This document shows, piece by piece, positions 173 through 29,592 of a stretch of 63,043 bases of DNA. The notes under the pieces were generated by a model. That model did not search any database. It was not told where the DNA came from and was given only the letters and a program-made list of their open reading frames with translations. The DNA is from a virus (lineage: Duplodnaviria > Caudoviricetes): positions 1-63,043 of the IMG/VR virus record IMGVR_UViG_3300036945_000174. One strand, written 5' to 3'. The position numbers were made by a program, and so were the translations under genes. The first letter of the stretch is position 1. Every line of letters starts with the position of its first letter.

Positions 173-1556
173 TATATATAGAGTTGTTTGTAATTGTATT
201 TTCTAAAATACCTGAAATATGCCTACCTGCTTGATGACCAATAGCAACATTATATATGCCAGTAGTGTTAGAGAATAAAGCCTGGCGACCAACACCAACA
301 TTTTGACTTCCAGTAGTGTTTGAATTTAAAGAATTTTGACCAACAGAAACGTTATCTGAACCTGTTGTATTTGATATTAATGATTGATGCCCAAAAGCTG
401 AATTATTATTTCCACTTGTGTTAGATTGCAAAGAAGATGTTCCAACAGAAGTATTATTACCGCCAGTAGTATTAGCATTTAAAGCACTTGACCCTACCCT
501 TGTGTTAGAAGCAATTGCTCCACCACCTCTACCAATATTAACACTATTAATAGTAGCATCAGCAGTAGTAGTTAAAGCACCTTGCACTCTTGCAGTTCCG
601 TTAACATCTAATCTAAAACCAGCATCTGTAAATGTACCTCCGCTTTGTATTAATACGTTTCCATTTGCAAATGTTGTAAGTCTTGCAGCACCATTTGTAG
701 ATAAACTTAAAGTACCAGTTGAATTATTAGAAAGATTAACATTTCCAGAATTAGCCTGTAATTGAGCTATATTAACTCCGCCTTCTTGTAAAAATATCCT
801 ACTATCTGAAGTTCTATTAATAATTAATCTGTCACTAGCAAATGTAAAGTTACTGCTTCCAGTTATTGAACTTGTACCATTCCAAAAAGCAACTTGACTT
901 GACGCTCCTGTTCCTGATACCGGTGTGAAACCTAACCACTCAGCAATTGTTTTATTTACCCATAATGTTCCGTTGTAACCAAGCACATCTCCATTGATAG
1001 GCACATCGGTTTTAATGTCTACATCGTGAATCTCGTTTAATTCAAAACCGTTTTGTACGTTTATGAATATCTCTCCGTTGTTAGAATTTACTCTAGTGAC
1101 AACTCCGATAAAAACTAAGTGAGCAGGAGCATAAGGTTTATTTGCTAAGCCGTAAATAAGATTACCATTAGTGCCTAACCATACAGGATCCCCAACTATT
1201 GCAGTTGATGTATCCAACCCGGCTAATCTACCTATTTGTACAACATCGGCAAAACCATTAATAGCAACTGTAGCATTAAGTAATCCTAAAGTTTTTGAAG
1301 ATGTAGCCTCAGTAGTATTTGATGCCAACCCCACAATTATATTAGTTCCGTCAGCGCTAGTTACATAAACAGCCTGCCCTTTATTTATAGCGACACCTGC
1401 CTTAACTTGGTTCTGAACATCACTAGCAACTCCTATGTCCGAATTAATCCAGCTAACTGTTGCTCCATTTGAAGATAGTACTTGGCCTGAAGTACCATTG
1501 GAGCCTGAAGAATCCTTCAGACCCGCTTGGACCTCTATATCGCTTTTAAATTTCAT
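1..1556 (-). CDS. N-terminal part of a large tail fibre / receptor-binding protein; continues across the contig join into 62871..60126 (about 1433 aa total)
   Basis: Not in the ORF track. ATG at 1556 (MKFKSDIEVQAGLKDSSGSNGTSGQVLSS...) is open to base 1, contains NTTG..N.A.G beta-roll-like repeats, and is in frame with 60126..62609 through the terminal repeat. Confidence 0.85.
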   Translation of the reverse strand, partial: MKFKSDIEVQAGLKDSSGSNGTSGQVLSSNGATVSWINSDIGVASDVQNQVKAGVAINKGQAVYVTSADGTNIIVGLASNTTEATSSKTLGLLNATVAINGFADVVQIGRLAGLDTSTAIVGDPVWLGTNGNLIYGLANKPYAPAHLVFIGVVTRVNSNNGEIFINVQNGFELNEIHDVDIKTDVPINGDVLGYNGTLWVNKTIAEWLGFTPVSGTGASSQVAFWNGTSSITGSSNFTFASDRLIINRTSDSRIFLQEGGVNIAQLQANSGNVNLSNNSTGTLSLSTNGAARLTTFANGNVLIQSGGTFTDAGFRLDVNGTARVQGALTTTADATINSVNIGRGGGAIASNTRVGSSALNANTTGGNNTSVGTSSLQSNTSGNNNSAFGHQSLISNTTGSDNVSVGQNSLNSNTTGSQNVGVGRQALFSNTTGIYNVAIGHQAGRHISGILENTITNNSIYIGYFSKALANNQTNQIVIGHDATGLGSNTTVLGNSSTTTTAIYGDLLLGGTTDNGVD

Positions 1557-1569
1557 ATATTATATTTTA

Positions 1570-3531
1570 TTATCCAATTTTTTGTAACAATGCTCTTACT
1601 GTATTTATTGCTTGCGTTTGTGCAAATGTAATTGTAATCAATCCAGCAGCACCTCTTGTAACGTCAGCATAAACAGTTTCGCCAGTTGCAACTAAAACTA
1701 ATTGAACCATTATCAATGATGAATCTGATCCAAGCCAGTGAGTAGCAGCAGAAATTGTGTAAGATGTTCCGGCAGCAGCAGGGCCTGTATTTGAGAATGA
1801 TGTTGCAGCATTAACTTTAGTAGCTAAATTAGCAATTGTTATTCTTTTATTTGTTGTAACGCTTACATCATAAATAGGTAATGAATCCGCTACGTCTGAG
1901 CCAGCATTAATATCTGCTAAGGTATCAATACTCAATCCAGCTACTACAGCTCCTGTTGTTGGCGTTATACCTAAACCTAATCTATTATTTACTGCCGATG
2001 CAGAAACTGACGTTACTGGAGTTGTATCTGTCCAAGGAACGTTAACAACCATTTGATTAGAAGCATTCAACTGAACTCCATAAGTTCTAGAAGCCGTAGT
2101 TGAAACCGCATTCCCCGCTACTGTTTGTACAGTATCAGAAAACAACTCAACTCCTCCTAATGTTGTTGATGTTGCTACCGGTAATGTATAAGTTGGATTA
2201 ACCCAAGTCCCATCACCTCTTAAGAATGTTGTATTAGCACCCCCTGAAGGTACAATACCTAAATTAGATCCTCCTGCATATATATCAGCAGAAACCCAAC
2301 CATTAGCAGTTACGTTAAAGTGAGCAGAGTTGAATCCAGCAATACCTTTTGTAGTTGCTCCATCAGTCGCTCCTTCTCCAGCAATATCTTGTCCTGATTG
2401 AACTACTGTCCAGTTTGCAAATGTAGCACCTGGATTATCTTGGTTAGCATAAATTAAATCTCCAGGCTGTACTGTTTCAGCAAAGAATGTACCTGTATTT
2501 GTTACTGCCCAAAACCATCCTTTTTTAATTAATGCAGACGGAGCCACATCTAAATCAGGAACGTTTGTAGCAGCATTATATCCTCCTTGGAATACTGATT
2601 GACCAACGTTTGATTGATCAACATAGCTTTTTGAAGCTGCGTCAGTTAAGGCAACTGGAGTTGTTGGAATTGTTACTTGTCCTCCAAAGCTTGATTGTCC
2701 TGTTCCAGAAACAGTTAAAGCTCCTGTAACAGTAACATCGTTTGGTAATCCAATAACAATTGTTCCGTTATTACCTGTTGTTTCAGTTACCTCAATCTCA
2801 TTTGTTGTTCCACTAAATGTAACAGAAGACGCAACACCAGAACCACTACCTCCAGCGGTTAAGTTGATTACAGCTGTATTAGCAGCTCCAGCAGCAACCG
2901 GTAATGTATATGTTGTATTTGTGTCTGGATTTGGTGGTAATGTAACTGTCTTTAAGTTTAAAGCAGTTATATGCCCTTGTGCATTACTAGTAACACTATC
3001 TACTGCAGTAAATGTACCTCCAAAAGCAGGAGATGCTGATGAAGATGTATCCGCTCTTGTAACAGATGCGTGGTTAATAGTAATAGTATCTGTTGCGCTT
3101 GCAACTGTAGATATTGCAGTGCCTCCTAATATACTAACTATATCTCCAGAATCTATTGATTGTGGAGTTCCTGTATTACCAGATAACGTCCATCCAGCGT
3201 ACTGTAATGGAGCAGCCCAAGTATTATCTCCTCTTAAGAATTTTGTATTGTCTGGAGTCCCAGTGGCATTTAAACTTGCCTCTAAACTAATGACATTACT
3301 TCCTGTAGCGCTTAAATTAGATAGGTTAATAAATGTACTGTTGTTTAAGTTTAATTGCTTTAAACCTATCCATTGTGATCCATCATGATATTTGAATGTG
3401 TTTACATTCGTTGTACTGTCTAAGTATATTTGTCCCTTAGCAGCTGTTGGCGCCGTAGACGCAACTTGAACCTTTGCATTTAGCAGTTGGTTGTCGTTGA
3501 GGTTTAGATTGTTTAAAAACTGTATTGCCAT
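1570..3531 (-). CDS. Virion structural / fibre-like protein
   Basis: 653 aa, T/A/G/S-rich, fibre-like motifs (FLRGDGTW twice, YTLPVA); late-gene context. Confidence 0.7.
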   Translation of the reverse strand: MAIQFLNNLNLNDNQLLNAKVQVASTAPTAAKGQIYLDSTTNVNTFKYHDGSQWIGLKQLNLNNSTFINLSNLSATGSNVISLEASLNATGTPDNTKFLRGDNTWAAPLQYAGWTLSGNTGTPQSIDSGDIVSILGGTAISTVASATDTITINHASVTRADTSSSASPAFGGTFTAVDSVTSNAQGHITALNLKTVTLPPNPDTNTTYTLPVAAGAANTAVINLTAGGSGSGVASSVTFSGTTNEIEVTETTGNNGTIVIGLPNDVTVTGALTVSGTGQSSFGGQVTIPTTPVALTDAASKSYVDQSNVGQSVFQGGYNAATNVPDLDVAPSALIKKGWFWAVTNTGTFFAETVQPGDLIYANQDNPGATFANWTVVQSGQDIAGEGATDGATTKGIAGFNSAHFNVTANGWVSADIYAGGSNLGIVPSGGANTTFLRGDGTWVNPTYTLPVATSTTLGGVELFSDTVQTVAGNAVSTTASRTYGVQLNASNQMVVNVPWTDTTPVTSVSASAVNNRLGLGITPTTGAVVAGLSIDTLADINAGSDVADSLPIYDVSVTTNKRITIANLATKVNAATSFSNTGPAAAGTSYTISAATHWLGSDSSLIMVQLVLVATGETVYADVTRGAAGLITITFAQTQAINTVRALLQKIG

Positions 3532-3533
3532 AG

Positions 3534-4247
3534 TTAGTTCATATATGCTTTCCCAGATTCATCTCCAGAAAAAGTTATTGTTAAGTTGTTTGCGTCTATA
3601 TAATTAACATCAGCTATACCTACTTGTCCAGTAGATAGCACCATTGTTACTGATGGAAATTTATCAAGATTGTGATTGATTATCCATGGATTAGCAGGAG
3701 TGTCTTGTGTAAATACAAATGTTTTATCTACAGCAGAATCTAAACTAACAAGAGATATCATGTAGTCCTCGTCCTCCTCCATAAAACCATGCCCTGTTCT
3801 ATAATCTACAGTAACAGTAAAGAAGTTAGGTTCATCGTCGTATATTACAATATCAGATATCTTATAAAATCCAAATGAATTAATATCGCTAGATTTAAAT
3901 ATAAGAACCTCACATTTATTTAAGAAATCAAGGAAGTCAGAAACTATGTTCTGCTTCATTGTGTACTTACTAAGAATAAATGTACTTATAGAAGAAAAAT
4001 TGACCGTAGCTCCTCTCTCTGGTATAAATGTCAAGGTTCCGTTAGGTCTAGTTTCTAAAGGATCTAGTGTATAGTACTTATACTGAAGTGGAACTCCAAT
4101 ATTAATAACTTGATTTTCGTTAAAGTACTCGGCTAACTTCTTAGGTGTAAAGTTCTTGGTTCTGTTCTGTTGATTAACATCAGATCCAATCCACTTATCA
4201 AGTGCAGTTATCTTTTCGTCTAATGTATATGTACTTATTTTTGTCAT
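3534..4247 (-). CDS. Putative virion structural protein
   Basis: C-terminal 'WIINHNLDKFPSVTMV...SGKAYMN' module typical of phage structural proteins. Confidence 0.6.
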   Translation of the reverse strand: MTKISTYTLDEKITALDKWIGSDVNQQNRTKNFTPKKLAEYFNENQVINIGVPLQYKYYTLDPLETRPNGTLTFIPERGATVNFSSISTFILSKYTMKQNIVSDFLDFLNKCEVLIFKSSDINSFGFYKISDIVIYDDEPNFFTVTVDYRTGHGFMEEDEDYMISLVSLDSAVDKTFVFTQDTPANPWIINHNLDKFPSVTMVLSTGQVGIADVNYIDANNLTITFSGDESGKAYMN

Positions 4248-4278
4248 ATTACTTTGTCTTAAGATGTTTTTGATTTTA

Positions 4279-4863
4279 CTAAATAAAACATCTTTTTTTT
4301 AATTCGTTTGTTTTTCTTCCAATACACAATGTATTTGACATTTCTGTAATAGAATCATAAAATATACCTGTGTATAAATCACAAACTAACGTTCCGTTAG
4401 CTCTTCTTAATTTATCTAAAACTTCTTTAGCATGAGTTACTTTTTTACCATACATAGGATTGTTTTCTCCCTGCATCCTTAGCGATGAATCATTACATTT
4501 AATCCCTTTATTCCAAGGAATATGACCTTTTTTAGCTTTGCTCATTTTTTCTTTAGATTCTAAAGTATGTTTAAATCCACTTTTCCCTCCATTAAAATAA
4601 TTCTTATTACAAAGATTTTCAAGACCTATTAAATTTATTAAAAATTCTTCTAACTCTAAAGAATCTATTTCTGATAAACTATCCTGTATAATATTTGAGT
4701 AATACCCATATTTTTTTACTGTATTTTTCCAATGTAAATTCCTTCCTGACTTAGATCTATATCTATTTCCCTTACCCTTACCAACGTAGAATATTTTATC
4801 GTCACTTTTTTTTCTATGTAAATAAACATAAAATATGTCTTTATTATCTTCCTTGACCAACAT
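4279..4863 (-). CDS. GIY-YIG homing endonuclease with NUMOD3-type motifs
   Basis: FYVYLH...FYVGKG..R motif; HTLESKEKMSKAKKG, PWNKG, NPMYGK; AT-rich. Confidence 0.85.
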   Translation of the reverse strand: MLVKEDNKDIFYVYLHRKKSDDKIFYVGKGKGNRYRSKSGRNLHWKNTVKKYGYYSNIIQDSLSEIDSLELEEFLINLIGLENLCNKNYFNGGKSGFKHTLESKEKMSKAKKGHIPWNKGIKCNDSSLRMQGENNPMYGKKVTHAKEVLDKLRRANGTLVCDLYTGIFYDSITEMSNTLCIGRKTNELKKRCFI

Positions 4864-8574: not shown

Positions 8575-8961
8575 CTAGTATAGACTCATAGTTAATAATT
8601 CTCTAATTATTTCATTGTCTGGATTAATAGCGTATCCAAGAGCAAATGATGCCGATACTTCGAACGACACGCCTGGTTTTTGCTTTACCCAGAACTCCTT
8701 TACGAATTCAGAGTCAATAATTTCATTTGTTTTCTCGTCTCTTGTTACTGTGAATAGCGCTGCTTTTACTTGTTTCATTTTATTTGATGTTACTGTTAGT
8801 TTTTGATTTGGAAATGGATCTCCCATTCCGACGTTTGATGATGTATTATATATTAGTCCTTGATTTGTAAATCCAGTACCTGTACTTACTCCTAAGTAAC
8901 TACTACTATTTGTATCCTTAAACGTAAGTGTTCCTGATGAATTCATTCTTGCTTGTTCCAT
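8575..8961 (-). CDS. Hypothetical protein between groEL and groES
   Basis: 128-aa ORF abutting both neighbours. Confidence 0.6.
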   Translation of the reverse strand: MEQARMNSSGTLTFKDTNSSSYLGVSTGTGFTNQGLIYNTSSNVGMGDPFPNQKLTVTSNKMKQVKAALFTVTRDEKTNEIIDSEFVKEFWVKQKPGVSFEVSASFALGYAINPDNEIIRELLTMSLY

Positions 8962-10565
8962 TATGCTCTTGCCATTGTTATAATTGCGTTAGTACTAAGC
9001 ACTGTTGTAGATACCGATACGGCATTCTTCAGCGCGTTCTTTGTTACCTTTAATGGATCAATTACACCCATCTTGTACATGTCTCCGGTTGTCATGTTCT
9101 TGATATCGAATCCAACAGTATATCCTTGTAGTCCATCCATCAGCTCGTACCCGTCTAGTCCGGCGTTCTCGAATATCTGTAGTAGTGGTGCCTGAATAGC
9201 TCTTGCCACAATATGCATGGCCGCGTACTGCTCTGCGCTGATGTCCTCGATCATATCGTCTGCATCTGCAATGATCGCGTACGACTCATTAAACAGTGCT
9301 ACTCCGCCACCAGGTAGGATGCCCTCCTCCAGTGCAGATCGTACCGCGCATACCGCATCGTCTACCCTGTCCTTGCGTTCCTTTTGTTCTAGGTCAGAGT
9401 TTCCTCCGACGTGAATCACAGCTATTCCACCTGTCAAGCTGGCAATACGCTCCTTGATAAAGTCCTGGTCGTTCTTTTTATTACTCAAGTCGTGAGCCTG
9501 CCATAACTGAGTTACTCTTTCTTCTACCACGTCAGTGGTCGACTCTGATTTTATAATTGAAGCTGATTCTCTTCCAACTATTACACGCTTAGCCTTACCA
9601 AGTGATTCGATTGTCATAAGACTTAAATCATCTCCAGTCTGCTCTGAGAAGTACTTGGCACCTACTGCCAACGCAATATCGTTCATCAGTTCGTTTCTCT
9701 TATAACCAAACTCAGGTGGTGGGATGTTACAGAACTTAAGTCCTTTCTGTACTACGTTGATTGCCAGTGTGTTAATTACGTTTTGACTGCACGGCCCGAT
9801 GATCAATAGTTTCTTGCCAGTCTGGATCACGTCTCTAAGCACGTTCTCGATTGATAGGATGTTGTTGATCTCTTGATCCGTAACTAGAATGTGTACGTCC
9901 TCTAGTATGCACTCGTCCTTTCTGTGGTCGTTCACGAATAGTTGTGACGTGTATCCTCTGTTTACCTTGATACCGTTAGTGTACTCGCAGTAGGTCTCAG
10001 CCGTCTGTGAGTTCTCAACCGTTACGATACCGGTCTTACCCACCTTGTCGTACGCTTCAGAGATCAAATTACCAATCTCAGAATCGTTATTAGCAGATAT
10101 CGACGCCACGTTGTTTAACGTCTTTCCTGTTACTTTCTTTGAGCGCTTCTCTAGTCGGTTGATTAGCTTGTTTGTTGTGTCGTTGATCTGTCTAATCACC
10201 TCTGTCGTGTTCAGATTACTGGTGATCATGTCCTGACCGTGCTTTACCAGCGCCTCTGTTAGTACGATGGCCGTTGTGGTACCGTCACCAGCGCTTGTCG
10301 CGGTGCGGTCTGCCGCTTCCTTCATCATCTTTACCGCTAGGTTCTCTACTGGATCTAGTAGATCAATTGATTTAGCGACTGTTACACCGTCCTTAGTTAC
10401 TGTAATACCGTGCGTGTGGTTGATTGACTCGATCAGTACGGTCTTTCCGCGCGGTCCTAGTGTGCTCTTTACTGCCTTGGCGATCGTGGTGATGCCGTTG
10501 ATTAATTTTTCTCGTCCTTCTTGTTCAAAGTCTAGAACTTTTGGACTGTATCCGAAGTTTGTCAT
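8961..10565 (-). CDS. groEL: Chaperonin GroEL homologue
   Basis: TLGPRG, VTKDGVTVAK, GDGTTTA, GILPGGGVAL, GVIDPLKVTK; no C-terminal GGM tail. Confidence 0.97.
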   Translation of the reverse strand: MTNFGYSPKVLDFEQEGREKLINGITTIAKAVKSTLGPRGKTVLIESINHTHGITVTKDGVTVAKSIDLLDPVENLAVKMMKEAADRTATSAGDGTTTAIVLTEALVKHGQDMITSNLNTTEVIRQINDTTNKLINRLEKRSKKVTGKTLNNVASISANNDSEIGNLISEAYDKVGKTGIVTVENSQTAETYCEYTNGIKVNRGYTSQLFVNDHRKDECILEDVHILVTDQEINNILSIENVLRDVIQTGKKLLIIGPCSQNVINTLAINVVQKGLKFCNIPPPEFGYKRNELMNDIALAVGAKYFSEQTGDDLSLMTIESLGKAKRVIVGRESASIIKSESTTDVVEERVTQLWQAHDLSNKKNDQDFIKERIASLTGGIAVIHVGGNSDLEQKERKDRVDDAVCAVRSALEEGILPGGGVALFNESYAIIADADDMIEDISAEQYAAMHIVARAIQAPLLQIFENAGLDGYELMDGLQGYTVGFDIKNMTTGDMYKMGVIDPLKVTKNALKNAVSVSTTVLSTNAIITMARA

Positions 10566-10821: not shown

Positions 10822-11058
10822 TTAGTATTGAAATGTTAAGACTTTGACTACATTCATCTGCGCATCTAGTATATCACCGATGGCCTTATCAAATAATAGT
10901 CTGCATAGCGGTCTCTCTGAGTTTGGATCCGCGTTTTGATTTAGTAGGTCTGCTAGTTCTGCGCAAAGTTCTTTTGCTCTGTTCACATTAGCATCTCCTG
11001 AAGGGTTAAATGTTAGTCCAACTAACTTTTCTCCGAATGTTAATTCTCTTGTTTCCAT
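10822..11058 (-). CDS. Acb2/Tad1-like helical-hairpin protein (candidate cyclic-nucleotide sponge)
   Basis: TFGEKLVGLTFNPSG...two helices ending AIGDILDAQMNVVKVLTF. Confidence 0.55.
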   Translation of the reverse strand: METRELTFGEKLVGLTFNPSGDANVNRAKELCAELADLLNQNADPNSERPLCRLLFDKAIGDILDAQMNVVKVLTFQY

Positions 11059-11491: not shown

Positions 11492-11762
11492 GCTACAAAG
11501 GTAATAAAATTATTTGATTGTTATTATACACAAAATGTCTAGAAATGTCTAGAATATCGAACATTGTTCATTATATTTGAATGTTCATTGACAATGAACG
11601 CTGATTTTAAATGAACATATCTACCCACCTATATAATAACGGCAATTATCGCCGGTATTTGCCAACGTTATATGCGGTATAGTGCATTTATTGTTGGTAA
11701 AAGCACACATTTATATGTTATATCATATAAAAATGTAGTATAATGCATTATTATATGTAAAA

Positions 11763-11925
11763 GCATCGGCGCCTGGGACATCCCGAGCCTAAACCGATGC
11801 CTTAGCGCCTTTTTGAACGACGTCGAGAAAGCTAACTCTATCTCCTATACGATGAGAACAACCTGAGCGCACTGATCTTACGGGAAGTGTGTTGTGTTTT
11901 ACGATCCACTCGCGAGCGTGGCTGT
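11763..11925 (-). ncRNA. Candidate structured ncRNA (unit C of the array)
   Basis: GC-richer non-coding segment; GCATCGG/CCGATGC stem 11763-11800 plus shorter stems. Confidence 0.5.
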
Positions 11926-11927
11926 TG

Positions 11928-12014
11928 ATACCGGTGAGAGACTCGAACTCTCATCTACTTCTAAAAGTAATGCTTACCCTAGGCAGTATTTATTCCTACT
12001 TACACCAACCGGTA
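11928..12014 (-). tRNA. tRNA-like element with long variable arm and non-canonical anticodon arm
   Basis: Acceptor TACCGGT/ACCGGTA, D-stem GTGT/ATAC, variable arm TACTT/AAGTA, T-arm GAGAG-TTCGAGT-CTCTC. Anticodon arm TGCCTAGGGTAAGCA is 15 nt with no canonical 7-nt loop. Confidence 0.7.
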
Positions 12015-12015
12015 C

Positions 12016-12165
12016 TATTCCACTAAGGCAGCGTCATCCTTAGTCGCACTTCGATAGTTGCTTATAACATGAGCTTCATGTACTATCACGTTTCGAGTTC
12101 TTTATCGACCACCTCTGAAGGTCACTCCGCACGGCGTGTTTTTCCGTTTAACCGCGTAACGCTTA
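12016..12165 (-). ncRNA. Candidate structured ncRNA (unit B)
   Basis: Stems ACTAAGG/CCTTAGT, GATAGT/ACTATC enclosing ACATGA/TCATGT, and GACC/GGTC; no ORF. Confidence 0.55.
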
Positions 12166-12167
12166 TT

Positions 12168-12247
12168 GTGTCAGGGCCGGACTCGAACCGGATAAGCAAC
12201 CAGTATTTCATGGATTCGGGACCATCCCTCATTACACCCACCTGACC
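12168..12247 (-). ncRNA. tRNA-like element (acceptor and T-arm intact, interior non-canonical)
   Basis: GTCAGG/CCTGAC acceptor-like stem, CCGG-TTCGAGT-CCGG T-arm; no standard D or anticodon arm. Confidence 0.6.
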
Positions 12248-12249
12248 TT

Positions 12250-12398
12250 ACGGTTAGTTGTTTAGTAGCATCTGCACCGCTAAGCAGATTTTATTACCGA
12301 TGAACAACTACGTCGAGAGTTTAATATTCACTGCAACTCACAAGCGTTCCCTAACATCAGAGACCAATCTTACAAGTTTAACGTGCATGTAAGAGCAC
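12250..12398 (-). ncRNA. Candidate structured ncRNA (unit A) starting with an H-type pseudoknot
   Basis: GTGC/GCAC crossing TCTTACA/TGTAAGA (12368-12398); TAGTTGTT/AACAACTA enclosing ATCTGC/GCAGAT (12255-12310). Confidence 0.55.
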
Positions 12399-12401
12399 TG
12401 T

Positions 12402-12623
12402 TTATTGTACAACCTTAATTACATTACCGTTTTTACCTATGACTACGGTCAAGTCGAATTGTTTATCCAGGTAGTTCATTATCTCGTGAACATCCCCGTT
12501 CATAAAGAACATGTGGAAGTGATTGAAGTGAATGTTCCTACCCGTCTTCTCTATAAAGTAACGATGGAACCAGCTGATCGGCATGTCGTCCTGCGTTCGT
12601 AACTTAATGTATTCGTCTTTCAT
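12402..12623 (-). CDS. Hypothetical protein heading the ncRNA array, probably leaderless
   Basis: 73 aa; TATATTTG box (12628-12635) ends 4 nt before ATG. Confidence 0.65.
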   Translation of the reverse strand: MKDEYIKLRTQDDMPISWFHRYFIEKTGRNIHFNHFHMFFMNGDVHEIMNYLDKQFDLTVVIGKNGNVIKVVQ

Positions 12624-12899
12624 TTGGCAAATATAATAAAATTTTATCAGATATGCGTAGTGTTTAGGTAATATATAGATATTGCGGATGGGATGCCAAA
12701 ACGAAAACGACTTAAAAATCGAGGGTGGGGTACTGATTTCACTGGACTTGCCGAGAATTTTTGGCTTTTTCTGGACTGCCCTACCCCTACACGCAAGTGT
12801 CTATTATATTACGCGCATACACGTACTACTATACGCGCACGTATACGTACCTATAATTCCTTTTTTTTACGGAGAGTAACCGATCAGATCCATACCAAA

Positions 12900-13169
12900 C
12901 TACTCCAATCGTTTACGTTGCTGGTATAATCTATCTCTCTCGTTGATACGTTCTTTGTTATCAATCTTATACTGCTTATCATACTCTCTCTTTAATTCCT
13001 TGCGCGAGTCTCTGTATTGTTTTAATCGTTCCTTATTGTCAACACCAAAGTATTTGAAATAACTTTTATCACACGTCTTGCAAATAGGTCTCAATCCATC
13101 AACCTTACTCTTGTCCTTTCTGAAATTCGTAGCATCACTTTCAATACTACATTTTGTACATTTTTTCAT
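12900..13169 (-). CDS. Zinc-finger protein resembling the N-terminus of an HNH homing endonuclease (possibly truncated)
   Basis: MKKCTKC...FRKDKSKVDGLRPICKTC then K/R-rich helix; no nuclease motif before the stop. Promoter box TATCTTTG at 13186-13193. Confidence 0.55.
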   Translation of the reverse strand: MKKCTKCSIESDATNFRKDKSKVDGLRPICKTCDKSYFKYFGVDNKERLKQYRDSRKELKREYDKQYKIDNKERINERDRLYQQRKRLE

Positions 13170-13207
13170 ATCATTTATTTTTATGCAAAGATACAACATA
13201 TGTCTGT

Positions 13208-13836: not shown

Positions 13837-14045
13837 GTTCAAATGAACGAGTAGAGAACTTCACTACTAATCAAATCGGTTGAGACCACAGACCTAAGAT
13901 GTGGCGGAGGTGTAGATGTCACCATAACCATCCTACTGAACAAACAGGTGTTATAAGCGGAGTAGTTGCCGTGAAGAGCGAAATGTAAACAGCATCAAAT
14001 AGATGTTATAAAGATTATAAGGCGGGAGTTTTATAATTGGTTTAG
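13837..14045 (+). ncRNA. Structured 5' leader RNA upstream of hammerhead 1
   Basis: Successive stems including GGTTG/TAACC enclosing CCACA/TGTGG and GGTG/CACC, and ATTATAAGGC-GGGA-GTTTTATAAT; no ORF. Confidence 0.55.
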
Positions 14046-14100
14046 AAACGTATATGGATGTGTTATCCATACTGATGAGCTACAGAATAGCGAAACGTTT
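14046..14100 (+). ncRNA. Hammerhead ribozyme, type III (cleavage after GUA, A14052)
   Basis: AAACGT-A, stem I TATGGAT/ATCCATA, core CTGATGA, stem II GCTA/TAGC, GAA, stem III ACGTTT; all core bases and pairs present. Confidence 0.93.
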
Positions 14101-14113
14101 AAACTTAATTATT

Positions 14114-14332
14114 ATGTTAGTAGAAATTTATGTAAATGGAGATTGGAACACGTCATTAGAAGACAACAATGAAGTTGTGATTTATGATAAAGGAACGGTT
14201 TATAAATTAGACGATAGTCTTTATGATTCTTTTATTGATAAATTAGAAGATGAAGGATTTGATTGTTATTTCTGTCCTGAACTATTTAAACATCCTGAAT
14301 GGAATGGAATTATAAAGTATGAGGTTAACTGA
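14114..14332 (+). CDS. Acidic 72-aa early protein bracketed by two hammerheads
   Basis: ATG 14114 after an AT-rich leader (the track start at 14054 lies inside ribozyme stem I); the TGA stop is part of the second CTGATGA core. Confidence 0.7.
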   Translation: MLVEIYVNGDWNTSLEDNNEVVIYDKGTVYKLDDSLYDSFIDKLEDEGFDCYFCPELFKHPEWNGIIKYEVN

Positions 14333-14372
14333 TGAGTCTTAAGTAGACGAAACTCCTTCGGGAGTCTTAACC
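14323..14372 (+). ncRNA. Hammerhead ribozyme, type I (cleavage after GUC, C14366)
   Basis: Stem I GGTTAA/TTAACC, core CTGATGA, stem II GTCT/AGAC, GAA, stem III ACTCC-TTCG-GGAGT, then C. Confidence 0.95.
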
Positions 14373-15117: not shown

Positions 15118-15441
15118 ATGAAAGCAATTTTAAACATCGGACTAAACAACAATCCATTAAGCCAGGAGGCAATCATCAACAAGTTAAGAGAAGACTATGC
15201 GCTAGACACGTACAAGTTTGCCATCGGACGATACGAAGACGAGAACGAACCAACACTAGTAGTGCACATCGAAAGTCCATACGCTAGGACTAGCCACTTC
15301 ATTAAGAAGATTGAAGAGTTGTCCACGATACTAACACAGAACTGCATCGCGGTAAGCACAGACCAGTTCGACATACTAGTGTACGCACAGAACTTCAACG
15401 GACAGAGATATAAGTTTGATAACCAATACTTTATACGATAA
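15118..15441 (+). CDS. Putative SAM lyase (T3 SAMase-like) anti-restriction protein
   Basis: GRY...EPTLVV...LTQNCIAV...LVYA parallels T3 SAMase GCY...EKTVRV...EQDCVLV...LVYA as recalled; early location. Confidence 0.55.
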   Translation: MKAILNIGLNNNPLSQEAIINKLREDYALDTYKFAIGRYEDENEPTLVVHIESPYARTSHFIKKIEELSTILTQNCIAVSTDQFDILVYAQNFNGQRYKFDNQYFIR

Positions 15442-15659
15442 TGACACTACAACTATACCGCAGACAACTAAGCAACAACGCGCTTACTATCGACAATGGT
15501 GGTCAGCCGTTCTTTATCCCGAAGTCATTCGAGCATACGATAGTTAACGACTACCTAGTGATTGTAGACGTACCGAAGTGGTTCGAGGACAAGCACGAGG
15601 ACACACTAAATAGAATTAAAACAAACACCAACCTAACAATAAAAAGACTGACATCATAA
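15441..15659 (+). CDS. Hypothetical early protein
   Basis: 72 aa; FIPKS...VPKWF. Confidence 0.65.
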   Translation: MTLQLYRRQLSNNALTIDNGGQPFFIPKSFEHTIVNDYLVIVDVPKWFEDKHEDTLNRIKTNTNLTIKRLTS

Positions 15660-28450: not shown

Positions 28451-28876
28451 ATGAAAACAATTAAAAAAGGACAACAGTACAGATGTATTAAGGATTATAT
28501 AATGGATGACGGCACACTAGCGTATAAATCTGGATGGACGTATGAAGCCACAGGTAAAAATATACTACCTTCTTTGTTTGATCCAACACATCAGATGGAT
28601 AAGTCAGATGATTTTAAAGATCACTTCAAGAGAGTAAAAAACAACCCAGAGGCTTATATACAGAACATTCCTGTAATATTTGATACCGTAAAGGTAGACT
28701 CTGTTGTTGAGTCGGTTATAAAAAAATTTAAGAGTAGATCTGATGTGGGAATCAAAAAGTATGGTACCACACTAGCGGGAAATGATAAATTAACAACGCT
28801 ACAATGGATAGATGAGGCTCAAGCTGAAGCTATGGATTTCTGTTTGTATTTGGAACGTCTTAAAAAAGAATTTTAA
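28451..28876 (+). CDS. Two-domain phage protein; C-terminal all-alpha domain possibly nucleotide-related
   Basis: RSDVGIKKYGTTL...W..EAQ.E.MD...YLE. Confidence 0.55.
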   Translation: MKTIKKGQQYRCIKDYIMDDGTLAYKSGWTYEATGKNILPSLFDPTHQMDKSDDFKDHFKRVKNNPEAYIQNIPVIFDTVKVDSVVESVIKKFKSRSDVGIKKYGTTLAGNDKLTTLQWIDEAQAEAMDFCLYLERLKKEF

Positions 28877-29592
28877 TGAACAATAGAAAGGTATATATTT
28901 ACAAAATAACTAATCCTGAAGGTAAAGTATATATTGGATCGACTGTTAATATTAAAGACAGAAAGTATAGATATAAAACAGCTAGGGTTAAAAGCCAAGT
29001 AAAAGTATATAACTCTATATTAAAATATGGTTTTGACAATCACAATTTTGAAATTATATTTGAATGTGATGAATCAAATAGAAATATCTACGAATCATTT
29101 TATGGAGAAAAGTTTGATGTTATAGGAGATAACGGATTAAACTTATCACTTCCAGCTTCAGGTGAATCTTATCCAGCTATGTCTTCAGAAACAAAAGCAA
29201 AAATAGGACTGGCACATAAAGGTAAGAAAATATCAGAATCTCAAAAACTATCTATTTCTAATAGTTCTAAAAAATATTTAGAAAATAATCCTCATCCTAT
29301 GTTAAATAAAACTCCTTGGAATAAAGGAAAGTCCTTTCTAAAAGGAGAATTAAATCCGATGTATGGTGTTAAAAGAAGTTTAGAATGGAAGATAAATCAC
29401 AGCTTATTAACAAAATCAATAGCTAAAAAAGGAGTTGATCATTTTAATTCTAAAATAGTATTAGATACTTACTTAGGTATTTTTTATTATAGCTGTAAGG
29501 AAGTTTCTGAATGCTACAATATAAAATACAGTACTTTAAAAGGAAAGCTTAATGGAACATCAAAAAACAATACTAACTTTAAATACGTATAG
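28876..29592 (+). CDS. GIY-YIG homing endonuclease with NUMOD3-type motifs
   Basis: YIYKITNP.GKVYIGST...R; SSETKAKIG..HKGKK, PWNKG, NPMYG. Confidence 0.9.
   Translation: MNNRKVYIYKITNPEGKVYIGSTVNIKDRKYRYKTARVKSQVKVYNSILKYGFDNHNFEIIFECDESNRNIYESFYGEKFDVIGDNGLNLSLPASGESYPAMSSETKAKIGLAHKGKKISESQKLSISNSSKKYLENNPHPMLNKTPWNKGKSFLKGELNPMYGVKRSLEWKINHSLLTKSIAKKGVDHFNSKIVLDTYLGIFYYSCKEVSECYNIKYSTLKGKLNGTSKNNTNFKYV

What the first reader, a model, noticed from the sequence alone, without database searches (positions are those of the whole stretch)
11763..12398. Array of structured ncRNAs punctuated by anticodon-defective tRNA-like elements
Seen: 640 nt of GC-richer, ORF-poor sequence downstream of the 12402-12623 gene, ordered on the minus strand as unit A, tRNA-like, unit B, tRNA-like, unit C, with only a few nt between parts. 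Both tRNA-like parts keep acceptor stem and TTCGAGT T-arm but lack a normal anticodon arm. Established: RNase P and RNase Z recognise mainly the acceptor/T-arm domain. Inference: the mimics serve as processing signals that cut out three unknown RNAs (tRNA punctuation), or the region is one large RNA of the kind found beside phage tRNAs.
Basis: partly seen in the sequence, partly recalled or inferred. Interest (0 to 1): 0.82.

Follow-up and report, generated by a model that had tools for sequence, protein, structure and literature searches.

The report
Phage RNA operon with tRNA mimics
A freshwater phage carries a non-coding stretch in which folded RNAs of unknown function are separated by tRNA look-alikes that cannot decode, most likely used as cutting signals for the host's tRNA-trimming enzymes, an arrangement known from plant mitochondria and a mouse herpesvirus.

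Summary
On the minus strand, 11759-12400 is an ORF-free, GC-richer 3' extension of the 73-aa gene transcript. It holds two tRNA-like elements (12169-12247 and 11928-12014) with acceptor stem, U8 and a TTCGAGT T-arm but no usable anticodon arm. ARAGORN and Rfam call neither one.

About 25 related phage contigs carry the same locus as a shuffled set of modules. The spacers (P, B, C, D, E) are conserved and show compensatory base-pair changes. The tRNA-likes keep their acceptor, D and T parts while their centres are replaced wholesale (96-207 nt). A true tRNA-Met is present in 13 of 18 complete arrays and absent from the window.

Metatranscriptome contigs cover the locus. Unit B contigs are roughly 10-30 times deeper than the flanks and stop within 2 nt of the first mimic's discriminator.

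Best reading (about 0.5): a tRNA-punctuated ncRNA operon cut by host RNase P and RNase Z, like plant-mitochondrial t-elements or MHV68 TMERs. Cleavage is inferred, not shown, and the function of the released RNAs is unknown. The "one large RNA" reading and the decaying-tRNA reading are not supported.

The parts
12628..12635 (-). Promoter-like -7 box (TAnnTTTG type) a few nt before the ATG of the 73-aa ORF. It is the only such box upstream of the array.
   Evidence: minus-strand boxes at 13193, 12635, 11503, 11089 and 10597, and none between 12400 and 11759. That this consensus is the Bacteroidota type is recalled, not tested.
12402..12623 (-). 73-aa ORF of unknown function that always precedes the RNA array.
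   Evidence: ORF; 10 viral and 11 metagenome relatives at 75-97% identity. No Pfam or PHROG family. AF2 model is poor, mean pLDDT 58.
12313..12400 (-). Module A1, an optional 88-nt 3'-UTR element.
   Evidence: present in 8 related arrays at 97-100% identity, absent from others (L089, L095, L097). Too invariant to test for structure.
12248..12312 (-). Module P, a 65-nt leader directly 5' of the first tRNA-like. It has two nested helices and a possible loop-to-tail pseudoknot.
   Evidence: 10 distinct sequences, 17 pairs, 170 of 170 cells paired, 4 pairs changed on both sides, 0 of 500 shuffles reach the covariation score. The pseudoknot helix shows only one-sided changes.
12169..12247 (-). tRNA-like 1 (tL1): acceptor of 6-7 bp, U8, a long irregular arm in place of the D and anticodon arms, a 4-bp T-stem with a TTCGAGT loop, discriminator A at 12169.
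   Evidence: The T-stem C-G is replaced by U-A in L089 and L104, where the acceptor/T geometry becomes 8/4. Never called by ARAGORN or Rfam in the window or in any relative.
12015..12168 (-). Unit B, a roughly 150-nt structured RNA, the most abundant part in an RNA library. Its 3' hairpin lies at 12023-12043.
   Evidence: the short form in 6 relatives has a pseudoknot plus two hairpins, 20 pairs, 99.2% of cells paired, 5 pairs changed on both sides. X19 contigs of depth 1375-4640 each (bin sums up to 12.9k) against 384-764 for the flanks. A 116-nt contig aligns to 12053-12166 with 2 further letters.
11928..12014 (-). tRNA-like 2 (tL2, subtype tL3a): 7-bp acceptor, U8, 5-bp T-stem with a TTCGAGT loop, discriminator U at 11928. 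Two small hairpins stand in place of the anticodon arm.
   Evidence: The L093 homologue is a 68-nt near-canonical cloverleaf (Rfam 50.9 bits; ARAGORN Ser-tga). The alternative occupant tL3b has a 6-bp stem with an 8-nt loop (ARAGORN 'tRNA-??? aaaa').
11807..11927 (-). Unit C, a 120-nt structured RNA. In relatives it is followed by tRNA-Met; in the window it is followed directly by the terminator.
   Evidence: 7 sequences, 27 predicted pairs, 6 with compensatory changes. One search gives the module map.
11759..11803 (-). Nested hairpin followed by a U-run, the likely intrinsic terminator of the unit.
   Evidence: Seen in the sequence and as the 3' hairpin of the MFE fold. Conserved at 84-98% in 18 related arrays. 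The simple terminator scan did not list it.
15786..15926 (+). Third tRNA-like of the same kind, standing alone between two protein genes of the plus-strand operon. It has a 7-bp acceptor, a class-II-like D-arm, a roughly 75-nt AT-rich centre and a T-arm.
   Evidence: RF00005, 32.3 bits; homologues are 91-170 nt long with conserved ends, a compensatory T-stem change in L005 and a covarying leader hairpin. L017 has a different 71-nt mimic at the same site.

Best explanation
The region is the non-coding 3' part of the transcript that starts at the promoter-like box before the 73-aa gene and ends at the hairpin and U-run at 11759-11803. It is an operon of structured RNAs punctuated by tRNA-derived 't-elements'.

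The two mimics keep the acceptor/T-arm minihelix and the elbow. Host RNase P would therefore cut at their 5' ends (about 12247/12246 and 12015/12014), and RNase Z or an equivalent 3' pathway would cut after their discriminators (12169 and 11928).

That would give four kinds of product:
- the 73-aa mRNA with a structured A1+P 3' end;
- the free mimics;
- a stable unit B RNA of about 150 nt;
- unit C with the terminator.

Shown: the anatomy, the conservation and covariation of the parts, the modular shuffling, presence in RNA libraries, and the higher contig depth of unit B.

Inferred: the cleavages, the enzymes, and that the released RNAs (above all B) act in trans during infection of a Bacteroidota host.
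For: 1. tRNA-like anatomy beyond chance: 3 elements against 0.185 expected.

2. Selective conservation. In 11 tLeu-type relatives the last 24 nt are identical and the first 15 nt are 94% identical on average. The centres are 96-207 nt long and about 49% alignable, which I judge near chance; no random control was run. Three of the 11 were found with that 24-mer, so for them its identity is by ascertainment. T-stems show compensatory changes in tL1 and in the 15786 family.

3. The spacers are not junk. P, B, D, C and E have 4, 5, 11, 6 and 2 pairs with changes on both sides.

4. The array persists without any real tRNA: 5 of 18 complete arrays, the window included, lack tRNA-Met. The window and G003 have no RF00005 match at all.

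5. Relatives' DNA and RNA contigs diverge from the window exactly at 12170, 11927 and 12019, that is, at the mimic ends.

6. RNA libraries. Unit B contigs reach depth 1375-4640 against 188-764 for all other parts in X19. One B contig ends within 2 nt of the discriminator. An X21 contig has a sequencing adapter fused at 12171, read antisense to the minus strand.

7. There is no promoter-like box inside the array.

8. A solitary mimic sits between two ORFs at 15786. The downstream ORF has no box of its own, which is the t-element situation described for plant mitochondria (PMC1920247, passages read).
Against: - No read-level 5' or 3' ends are available. The tool states that contigs cannot show ends, strand or level, so point 6 is only a hint.
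- One X19 contig runs 12 nt from B into the next mimic, and another spans mimic-C-tRNA-Met. Unprocessed forms, or DNA, are therefore present.
- The whole-region fold is not better than shuffles (z = -0.09).
- The alignments hold only 5-10 related sequences, and the structures were derived from those same sequences.
- Part of the mosaicism could be chimeric metagenome assembly across shared modules.
- tL1 has a weakened acceptor (U-C or a bulge at the seventh pair) and a 4-bp T-stem, so its fitness as an RNase P or RNase Z substrate is unknown.
- No function or target for B was found.
Confidence: 0.5

Rival explanations
1. The tRNA-likes themselves are the product. They would be natural 'tRNA scaffolds' that are processed and stabilised like tRNAs and display a variable RNA domain where the anticodon arm was, or non-decoding tRNAs that are still bound or charged by host enzymes (decoys for tRNA-targeting defences, or substrates of anticodon-independent synthetases). 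The spacers would be only their leaders and trailers.
For: - tLeu-type elements keep a class-II, Leu-like D-arm and discriminator A, while the centre is swapped among close relatives at lengths of 96-207 nt. That is a pattern expected under an arms race.
- The tL1 centre is conserved, with a hairpin kept through an A-U to G-U/G-C change.
- Engineered tRNA scaffolds work this way (listing only).
Against: - In X19 the abundant species is spacer B, not the tL1-containing contig (384 against 1375-4640). Structured or modified tRNA-like RNAs are, however, under-sampled by RNA-seq.
- The spacers carry their own covariation, which leaders and trailers would not need.
- Most centres are unalignable and show no shared motif.
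Confidence: 0.2
2. The modules that start right after each tRNA or mimic (B, C, D, E) are cis-acting processing devices. They could be self-cleaving ribozymes that free the upstream 3' end, as theta (HDV-like) ribozymes do beside phage tRNAs.
For: - Every such module begins 1 nt after the discriminator.
- The phage uses small ribozymes elsewhere: a type III hammerhead at 14045-14101 (40.6 bits, E 1e-6) and similar hits in 4 relatives.
- Theta ribozymes sit next to viral tRNAs (PMC10879173, title and start of abstract seen in the listing).
Against: - No ribozyme family of Rfam 15 matches the array in the window (E<=10) or in 12 relatives (E<=1).
- B-short is a simple H-type pseudoknot plus two hairpins.
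- By my inspection, not a formal descriptor search, no helix starts at +1 in B or C, as an HDV-like P1 would.
- B, C, D and E are four unrelated folds.
- B accumulates to high depth, which is unusual for a spent trailer.
Confidence: 0.07
3. A decaying tRNA gene cluster: former tRNAs losing their anticodon arms, with spacers that look conserved only because the genomes are close.
For: - Relatives carry a real tRNA-Met at the same locus.
- One tL2 homologue (L093) is nearly canonical (50.9 bits). This suggests descent from true tRNAs.
Against: - Changes are not spread evenly. The ends are invariant or compensated, and the centres are replaced.
- The spacers show compensatory changes.
- Modules B, tL1 and C are 95-97% identical between the window and L093, while the adjacent 73-aa gene is 82.5% identical.
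- The array is retained in 5 of 18 arrays that have no tRNA, and it is present in RNA libraries.
Confidence: 0.05
4. One large structured RNA of the kind found beside phage tRNAs (GOLLD, ROOL or similar).
For: A long, ORF-free, GC-richer stretch in a phage, next to tRNA-type sequences.
Against: - No Rfam match at the gathering score or at E<=10.
- The parts occur separately and in 17 different orders among 18 complete arrays.
- L095 joins tL1 directly to C.
- Predicted helices are local to each module.
- The whole-region fold is not special.
Confidence: 0.03

Closest known systems
t-elements of plant mitochondria (tRNA-like processing signals)
   Same: Non-canonical cloverleaves that keep a conserved GGTTCRANYCC-type T-arm. 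They lie beside mRNA ends and are taken to direct RNase P and RNase Z cuts, and the excised t-element can be stable (PMC1920247, abstract and passages read). The mimic at 15786 between two ORFs and the two in the array match this layout.
   Different: Here the carrier is a bacteriophage, and the host enzymes are bacterial. The elements separate structured non-coding RNAs as well as mRNAs. They form families with hypervariable centres that are exchanged between genomes. Ends are not mapped here.
MHV68 TMERs (tRNA-miRNA-encoded RNAs of a mouse gammaherpesvirus)
   Same: A virus-encoded array in which non-decoding tRNA-like elements are fused to other small RNAs that tRNase Z releases. The mechanism is recalled; only titles and abstract starts were seen in the listing.
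   Different: TMERs are RNA polymerase III units, each with its own promoter inside the tRNA-like part, and their cargo is pre-miRNA hairpins. Here there is one bacterial-type transcript, and the cargo is 65-160-nt folded RNAs.
Phage T4 RNAC and RNAD (stable RNAs of the T4 tRNA region)
   Same: Phage-encoded small stable RNAs of still unknown function, linked to the phage's tRNA genes (PMC9697503, passages read: 'RNAs of yet unknown functions'). That they are co-processed with the tRNAs is recalled.
   Different: T4 has eight real tRNAs; the window has none. No sequence comparison with T4 was made.
Engineered tRNA scaffold for recombinant RNA
   Same: An RNA of interest replaces the anticodon arm, and the chimera is processed and protected like a tRNA (concept recalled; listing only). 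The tLeu-type mimics look like natural versions.
   Different: The scaffold is man-made. Whether the natural centres have any function is unknown.
Theta (HDV-like) ribozymes beside phage tRNAs
   Same: Small structured RNAs placed directly next to phage tRNAs and implicated in tRNA processing (PMC10879173, listing only).
   Different: No HDV-like fold or Rfam ribozyme match was found in the array.
allo-tRNAs with 8/4 or 9/3 acceptor/T-stem geometry
   Same: The L089 and L104 versions of tL1 fold with an 8-bp acceptor and a 4-bp T-stem, the geometry reported for these unusual tRNAs in bacteria and phages (PMC5389517, abstract start seen).
   Different: allo-tRNAs have working anticodon arms. 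tL1 has none, and the window copy has a bulge or mismatch in the acceptor.

Membership tests
Canonical tRNA (Rfam RF00005 / ARAGORN) | Score at or above the family threshold (29 bits), or a call by a tRNA finder | tested here: not met
   tL1 and tL2: no RF00005 match at E<=10 or at E<=0.01 in the whole record. ARAGORN finds 0 genes. Only the 15786 element reaches 32.3 bits.
Canonical tRNA (Rfam RF00005 / ARAGORN) | Acceptor stem plus T-arm with a T-loop, and U8 | tested here: met
   tL2 has 7 bp plus 5 bp. tL1 has 6-7 bp plus 4 bp.
Canonical tRNA (Rfam RF00005 / ARAGORN) | Anticodon arm of 5 bp with a 7-nt loop (U33, purine 37) | tested here: not met
   MFE folds and alignments. tL1 has one long irregular arm. 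tL2 has two small hairpins (loops of 3-4 nt). The tL3b relatives have a 6-bp stem with an 8-nt loop ('aaaa').
t-element-type processing signal | tRNA-like fold with a conserved T-arm, placed at the border of functional RNAs | tested here: met
t-element-type processing signal | Transcript ends coincide with the element's ends | tested here: inconclusive
   Contig ends at about 12168 and an adapter junction at 12171. Contigs cannot prove ends, and some contigs bridge the borders.
t-element-type processing signal | Cleavage by RNase P and RNase Z | not testable with these tools
   Needs enzyme assays or read-level end mapping. The RNase Z family search showed only that the phage itself has none.
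Large phage-associated RNAs (GOLLD, ROOL, HEARO and similar, as held in Rfam) | Match to the family covariance model | tested here: not met
   and for 12 relatives.
Self-cleaving ribozymes next to tRNAs (HDV-like/theta, hammerhead, hatchet, pistol, twister) | Match to a family model, or the nested double pseudoknot starting at +1 | tested here: not met
   No match inside the array. The B-short topology is Ha5'-Hb5'-Ha3'-Hb3' plus two hairpins. The absence of a +1 helix rests on inspection only.
tmRNA / two-piece tmRNA | tRNA-like domain plus a tag reading frame, as found by ARAGORN or Rfam | tested here: not met
allo-tRNA (8/4) | 8-bp acceptor plus 4-bp T-stem together with a functional anticodon arm | tested here: not met
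   The 8/4 geometry appears only in the L089 and L104 copies. No copy has an anticodon arm.

The most novel reading that the evidence does not exclude
A so far undescribed class of phage RNA cassette system in phages of Bacteroidota. Anticodon-less tRNA scaffolds would serve at once as RNase P/Z punctuation, as stabilising ends and as carriers of hypervariable RNA domains. They would release a set of exchangeable, highly expressed structured RNAs (B, C, D and the roughly 300-nt module F of relatives). These RNAs would act on the host as riboregulators, protein sponges or counter-defence decoys, in a phylum that is thought to lack the classical sRNA chaperones (recalled). Rapid module shuffling would be the trace of an arms race.
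Probability: 0.3. Interest if true: 0.85.

Novelty: new variant of a known kind. Interest (0 to 1): 0.72.

Why it matters
tRNA-like cutting signals are textbook for mitochondria and are known from one herpesvirus. My literature searches turned up no report of them for a bacteriophage or a bacterial transcript array.

If the reading holds, three things follow:
- phages recruit the host tRNA-maturation machinery to make non-tRNA products;
- sequences that tRNA finders reject as pseudo-tRNAs in phage genomes would have an explanation;
- at least five new covariation-supported RNA folds, one of them very abundant in lake metatranscriptomes, become open to functional study.

It would also be a natural counterpart of the engineered tRNA scaffold.

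Tried and rejected
- Whole-region MFE against shuffles: z = -0.09, uninformative.
- blastn of the region against 50,697 GenBank phage records: no match.
- The simple promoter/terminator scan did not flag the conserved terminator.
- Alternative genetic codes (table 4, TAG=Q): no long ORF.
- Search for antisense targets of the RNAs in the phage genome: only 10-17-nt matches, at E 0.49 or worse, apart from the shared T-arm.
- B motif in 185,579 species genomes: 0 hits. In IMG/VR it occurs in 5 contigs of the same clade only.
- The 21-nt T-arm/acceptor of the tLeu type in the species genomes: 0 hits, so no host donor tRNA was identified.
- P-module pattern in IMG/VR: 7 contigs, all of the same clade.
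- 73-aa protein: no Pfam or PHROG family. The AF2 model is poor (mean pLDDT 58), so no fold search was run.
- The GGGATGTCCC hairpin occurs once in the window, which is chance level.
- The RNase Z family search showed that the phage lacks it but did not say which control genomes pass the cut-off.
- GenBank relatives MW202828.1 and MT497078.1 have no RNA feature annotated in the fetched stretch around groEL, which includes the side corresponding to the array.
- Distant (27-31%) relatives of the 73-aa protein (L110-L114) have no modules or mimics downstream.
- Parts of the laid stretch without RNA contig cover in X20-X22 are not evidence of absence.
- No supplementary files were consulted.
Full report
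WHAT THE WINDOW IS

The window is a complete 63,043-bp IMG/VR phage record. It encodes GroEL at 8961-10565. Its nearest cultured relatives, by primase/helicase and GroEL, infect Flavobacterium, Cellulophaga, Polaribacter and other Flavobacteriia.

Small genes on the minus strand each have a TAnnTTTG box a few nt before the ATG. One such box lies at 12635, before the 73-aa ORF at 12402-12623. That this box is the Bacteroidota promoter type is recalled, not tested.

CHECK OF THE OBSERVATION

The stretch 11759-12400 is GC-richer than its flanks, 0.43-0.50 against 0.30-0.41. It has no minus-strand ORF of 40 aa or more, and none appears under table 4 or TAG=Q.

A scan for acceptor stem, U8 and a T-arm finds three tRNA-like elements in the window: 12169-12247(-), 11929-12014(-) and 15786-15925(+). 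The mean in 200 dinucleotide shuffles is 0.185, and no shuffle reaches three.

ARAGORN calls no tRNA in the window. Rfam's tRNA model does not match the two elements of the finding even at E<=10. It matches only the third element, at 32.3 bits.

Folds show closed acceptor and T arms but no 5-bp/7-nt anticodon arm. The described order A, mimic, B, mimic, C is correct. The whole-region fold energy, however, is no better than that of shuffles (z = -0.09).

RELATIVES

Where the relatives came from:
- GroEL brought 80 loci. Only 7 of them share DNA similarity with the region.
- The 73-aa gene brought 10 viral loci and 16 metagenome loci, 11 of the latter close.
- Motif scans added L085, L115 and L117.

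Between the 73-aa gene and a conserved nested hairpin with a U-run, every relative carries a different combination of the same kit:
- an optional module A1;
- a leader P;
- a first mimic, either tL1 or a Leu-like 'tLeu' type;
- spacer B (short or long form) or spacer D;
- a second mimic (tL3a, as in the window, or tL3b);
- spacer C or D;
- a real tRNA-Met(CAU);
- a hairpin module E;
- the terminator.

Among the 18 arrays that reach the terminator there are 17 different orders. tRNA-Met is present in 13 of them and absent from 5, the window included.

ARAGORN on 24 related loci:
- it calls tRNA-Met in 16;
- it calls tL3b 'tRNA-??? (aaaa)' in 5;
- it calls one tL3a 'Ser(tga)';
- it never calls tL1 or tLeu.

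Rfam on 12 relatives:
- tRNA-Met scores 67-74 bits;
- nine mimics score 36-51 bits;
- tL1 is never matched.

Complete relative genomes hold no tRNA outside this locus.

Relatives also show a roughly 300-nt ORF-free module F and, in L093, a 64-aa ORF inserted at the head of the array.

A caveat applies to all of this. Shared modules could cause chimeric assembly, so part of the mosaic may be artefact. RNA contigs from other samples do independently show the junctions B-to-tL3b and tL3b-C-tRNA-Met.

THE MIMICS ARE MAINTAINED, NOT DECAYING

In 11 tLeu-type copies the last 24 nt are identical and the first 15 nt are 94% identical on average. Total length runs from 96 to 207 nt. The centres align at a median of 49%. 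Three of the 11 copies were found with that 24-mer, so for them its identity is by ascertainment.

Some copies also carry hairpin insertions in the D-loop.

The tL1 T-stem changes from C-G to U-A in L089 and L104. Those copies also gain an eighth acceptor pair, which gives an 8/4 geometry.

The family at 15786 repeats the pattern at a second locus:
- the ends are conserved;
- L005 has a two-pair compensatory change in the T-stem;
- there are three unrelated centres, 91-170 nt long;
- a leader hairpin is kept in structure but not in sequence;
- L017 has a different 71-nt mimic at the same site.

THE SPACERS ARE STRUCTURED RNAs

| Module | Sequences | Pairs | Result |
|---|---|---|---|
| P | 10 | 17 | all 170 cells paired; 4 pairs changed on both sides; 0 of 500 shuffles reach the covariation score |
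| B-short | 6 | 20 | H-type pseudoknot plus two hairpins; 99.2% of cells paired; 5 pairs changed on both sides |
| D | 5 | 44 | 11 pairs compensatory |
| C | 7 | 27 | 6 pairs compensatory |
| E | 6 | 17 | 2 pairs compensatory |

The window's long form of B shares both ends with B-short, including the covarying 3' hairpin at 12023-12043.

These samples are small and related, and the structures were derived from the same sequences. The numbers therefore support structure but are not probabilities.

No Rfam family matches any module. The B motif occurs in 0 of 185,579 species genomes and in only 5 IMG/VR contigs of this clade.

EXPRESSION HINTS

Twenty-four public runs hold part of the locus. Apart from the two shale-gas runs marked as possible sources of this DNA and one invertebrate metagenome, those with a label are freshwater or aquatic; six are metatranscriptomes. 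Four RNA runs were laid as contigs.

In X19:
- contigs over unit B have depths of 1375, 1609 and 4640, with bin sums up to 12.9k;
- the other parts are shallower: 384 for the tL1/P/A1 contig, 764 for the 73-aa gene, 189 for unit C and 544 for the downstream stretch;
- a 116-nt contig aligns to 12053-12166 and has two further letters, so it ends within 2 nt of the tL1 discriminator at 12169.

In X21 a contig has an Illumina adapter fused at 12171 and reads antisense to the minus strand. That fits a minus-strand RNA ending near the 3' end of tL1.

Other contigs leave the window's sequence exactly at 12170, 12019 and 11927, which are the mimic borders.

Against processing, one contig continues 12 nt from B into the next mimic, and one spans mimic-C-tRNA-Met. 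The tool warns that contigs show neither ends nor levels, so I count all of this as a weak hint.

MECHANISM

No promoter-like box lies inside the array. The array is therefore most simply the 3' part of the 73-aa gene transcript.

The parts kept in all the mimics (acceptor, T-arm, elbow) are the parts that RNase P, RNase Z and the CCA-adding enzyme recognise; this is established knowledge, and PMC1920247 gives the t-element precedent (passages read). None of the mimics, nor the real tRNA-Met, encodes CCA. All are followed by C and then A or G.

I therefore commit, at about 0.5, to tRNA punctuation:
- RNase P cuts at the mimics' 5' ends;
- RNase Z or an equivalent cuts after the discriminators;
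- this releases the mRNA with a structured A1+P tail, the mimics, a stable unit B RNA, and unit C with the terminator.

What B does is unknown. No antisense target in the phage was found.

RIVALS

- The mimics are themselves the products, as scaffolds or decoys (0.2).
- The trailers are ribozymes or cis-acting devices (0.07). This is prompted by a type III hammerhead at 14045-14101 and by theta ribozymes beside phage tRNAs (PMC10879173, listing only).
- A decaying tRNA cluster (0.05).
- One large RNA (0.03).

COMPARISON AND NOVELTY

The closest known systems:
- plant-mitochondrial t-elements;
- MHV68 TMERs (listing only; mechanism recalled);
- T4 RNAC and RNAD, 'of yet unknown functions' (PMC9697503, passages read);
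- the engineered tRNA scaffold (listing only).

My searches found no report of anticodon-less tRNA mimics punctuating a phage ncRNA array. That covers only open-access full texts. I rate the finding a new variant of a known kind.

Noticed in passing
window 14045-14101 (+) and 14312-14358 (+): A type III hammerhead ribozyme with an intact CUGAUGAG...CGAAAC core lies at the start of the plus-strand operon (40.6 bits, below the 48.5 gathering score; E 1.1e-6). A second, weak candidate scores 21.4 bits. Near-threshold hammerhead III hits (39.6-45.7 bits) lie at the corresponding place in L090, L092, L094 and L096, along with weaker type I and RAGATH-1 hits.
   Followed up: partly
window 15786-15926 (+): A third anticodon-defective tRNA-like stands alone between ORFs 15441-15659 and 15950-16222. 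The downstream ORF has no TAnnTTTG box of its own, so its 5' end may be made by cleavage.
   Followed up: partly
window 13193, 12635, 11503, 11089 (minus strand); 13825 (plus strand): TAnnTTTG boxes sit 5-15 nt before the start codons of small ORFs. This suggests Bacteroidota-type promoters and nearly leaderless mRNAs.
   Followed up: partly
window 4279-4863 (-), 28876-29592 (+), 24365-24844 (+), 12900-13199 (-): There are several homing-endonuclease-type genes: GIY-YIG/NUMOD3 twice, HNH_3 once, and a 99-aa endonuclease VII/HNH-like ORF just upstream of the RNA operon. They could drive the mosaicism of the locus.
   Followed up: no
window 10822-11058 (-): This 78-aa ORF has a weak match to the Acb2/Tad1 hairpin domain (E 0.0045, 17.6 bits, below the cut-off of 27). 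It could be a sponge for defence signals.
   Followed up: no
L091:2714-3080, L104:~1560-1905, L108:2714-2940: Module F is a roughly 220-360-nt ORF-free element with conserved blocks and an internal TAccTTTG box. It is inserted at the head of the array in three relatives and may be a further ncRNA with its own promoter.
   Followed up: no
window 11768-11790 (-); L085 and L117 D-loop inserts: The inner hairpin of the terminator (about 21 nt, around GGGATGTCCC) recurs at 90% identity as an insertion in the D-loop of tLeu-type mimics of L085 and L117. A similar hairpin lies in the centre of tL1. It could be a small mobile hairpin or a protein-binding hairpin.
   Followed up: partly
L096 and L103 tLeu-type mimics: The roughly 110-nt centre shared by these two copies contains a second copy of the 8-9-nt 3' strand of the D-arm. 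It looks like an insertion flanked by a short direct repeat.
   Followed up: no
L101 (metagenome contig), about 70 nt after the B-short start: The sequence switches to 54% GC DNA unrelated to the phage clade. The contig is probably chimeric, a warning about assemblies at this locus.
   Followed up: no
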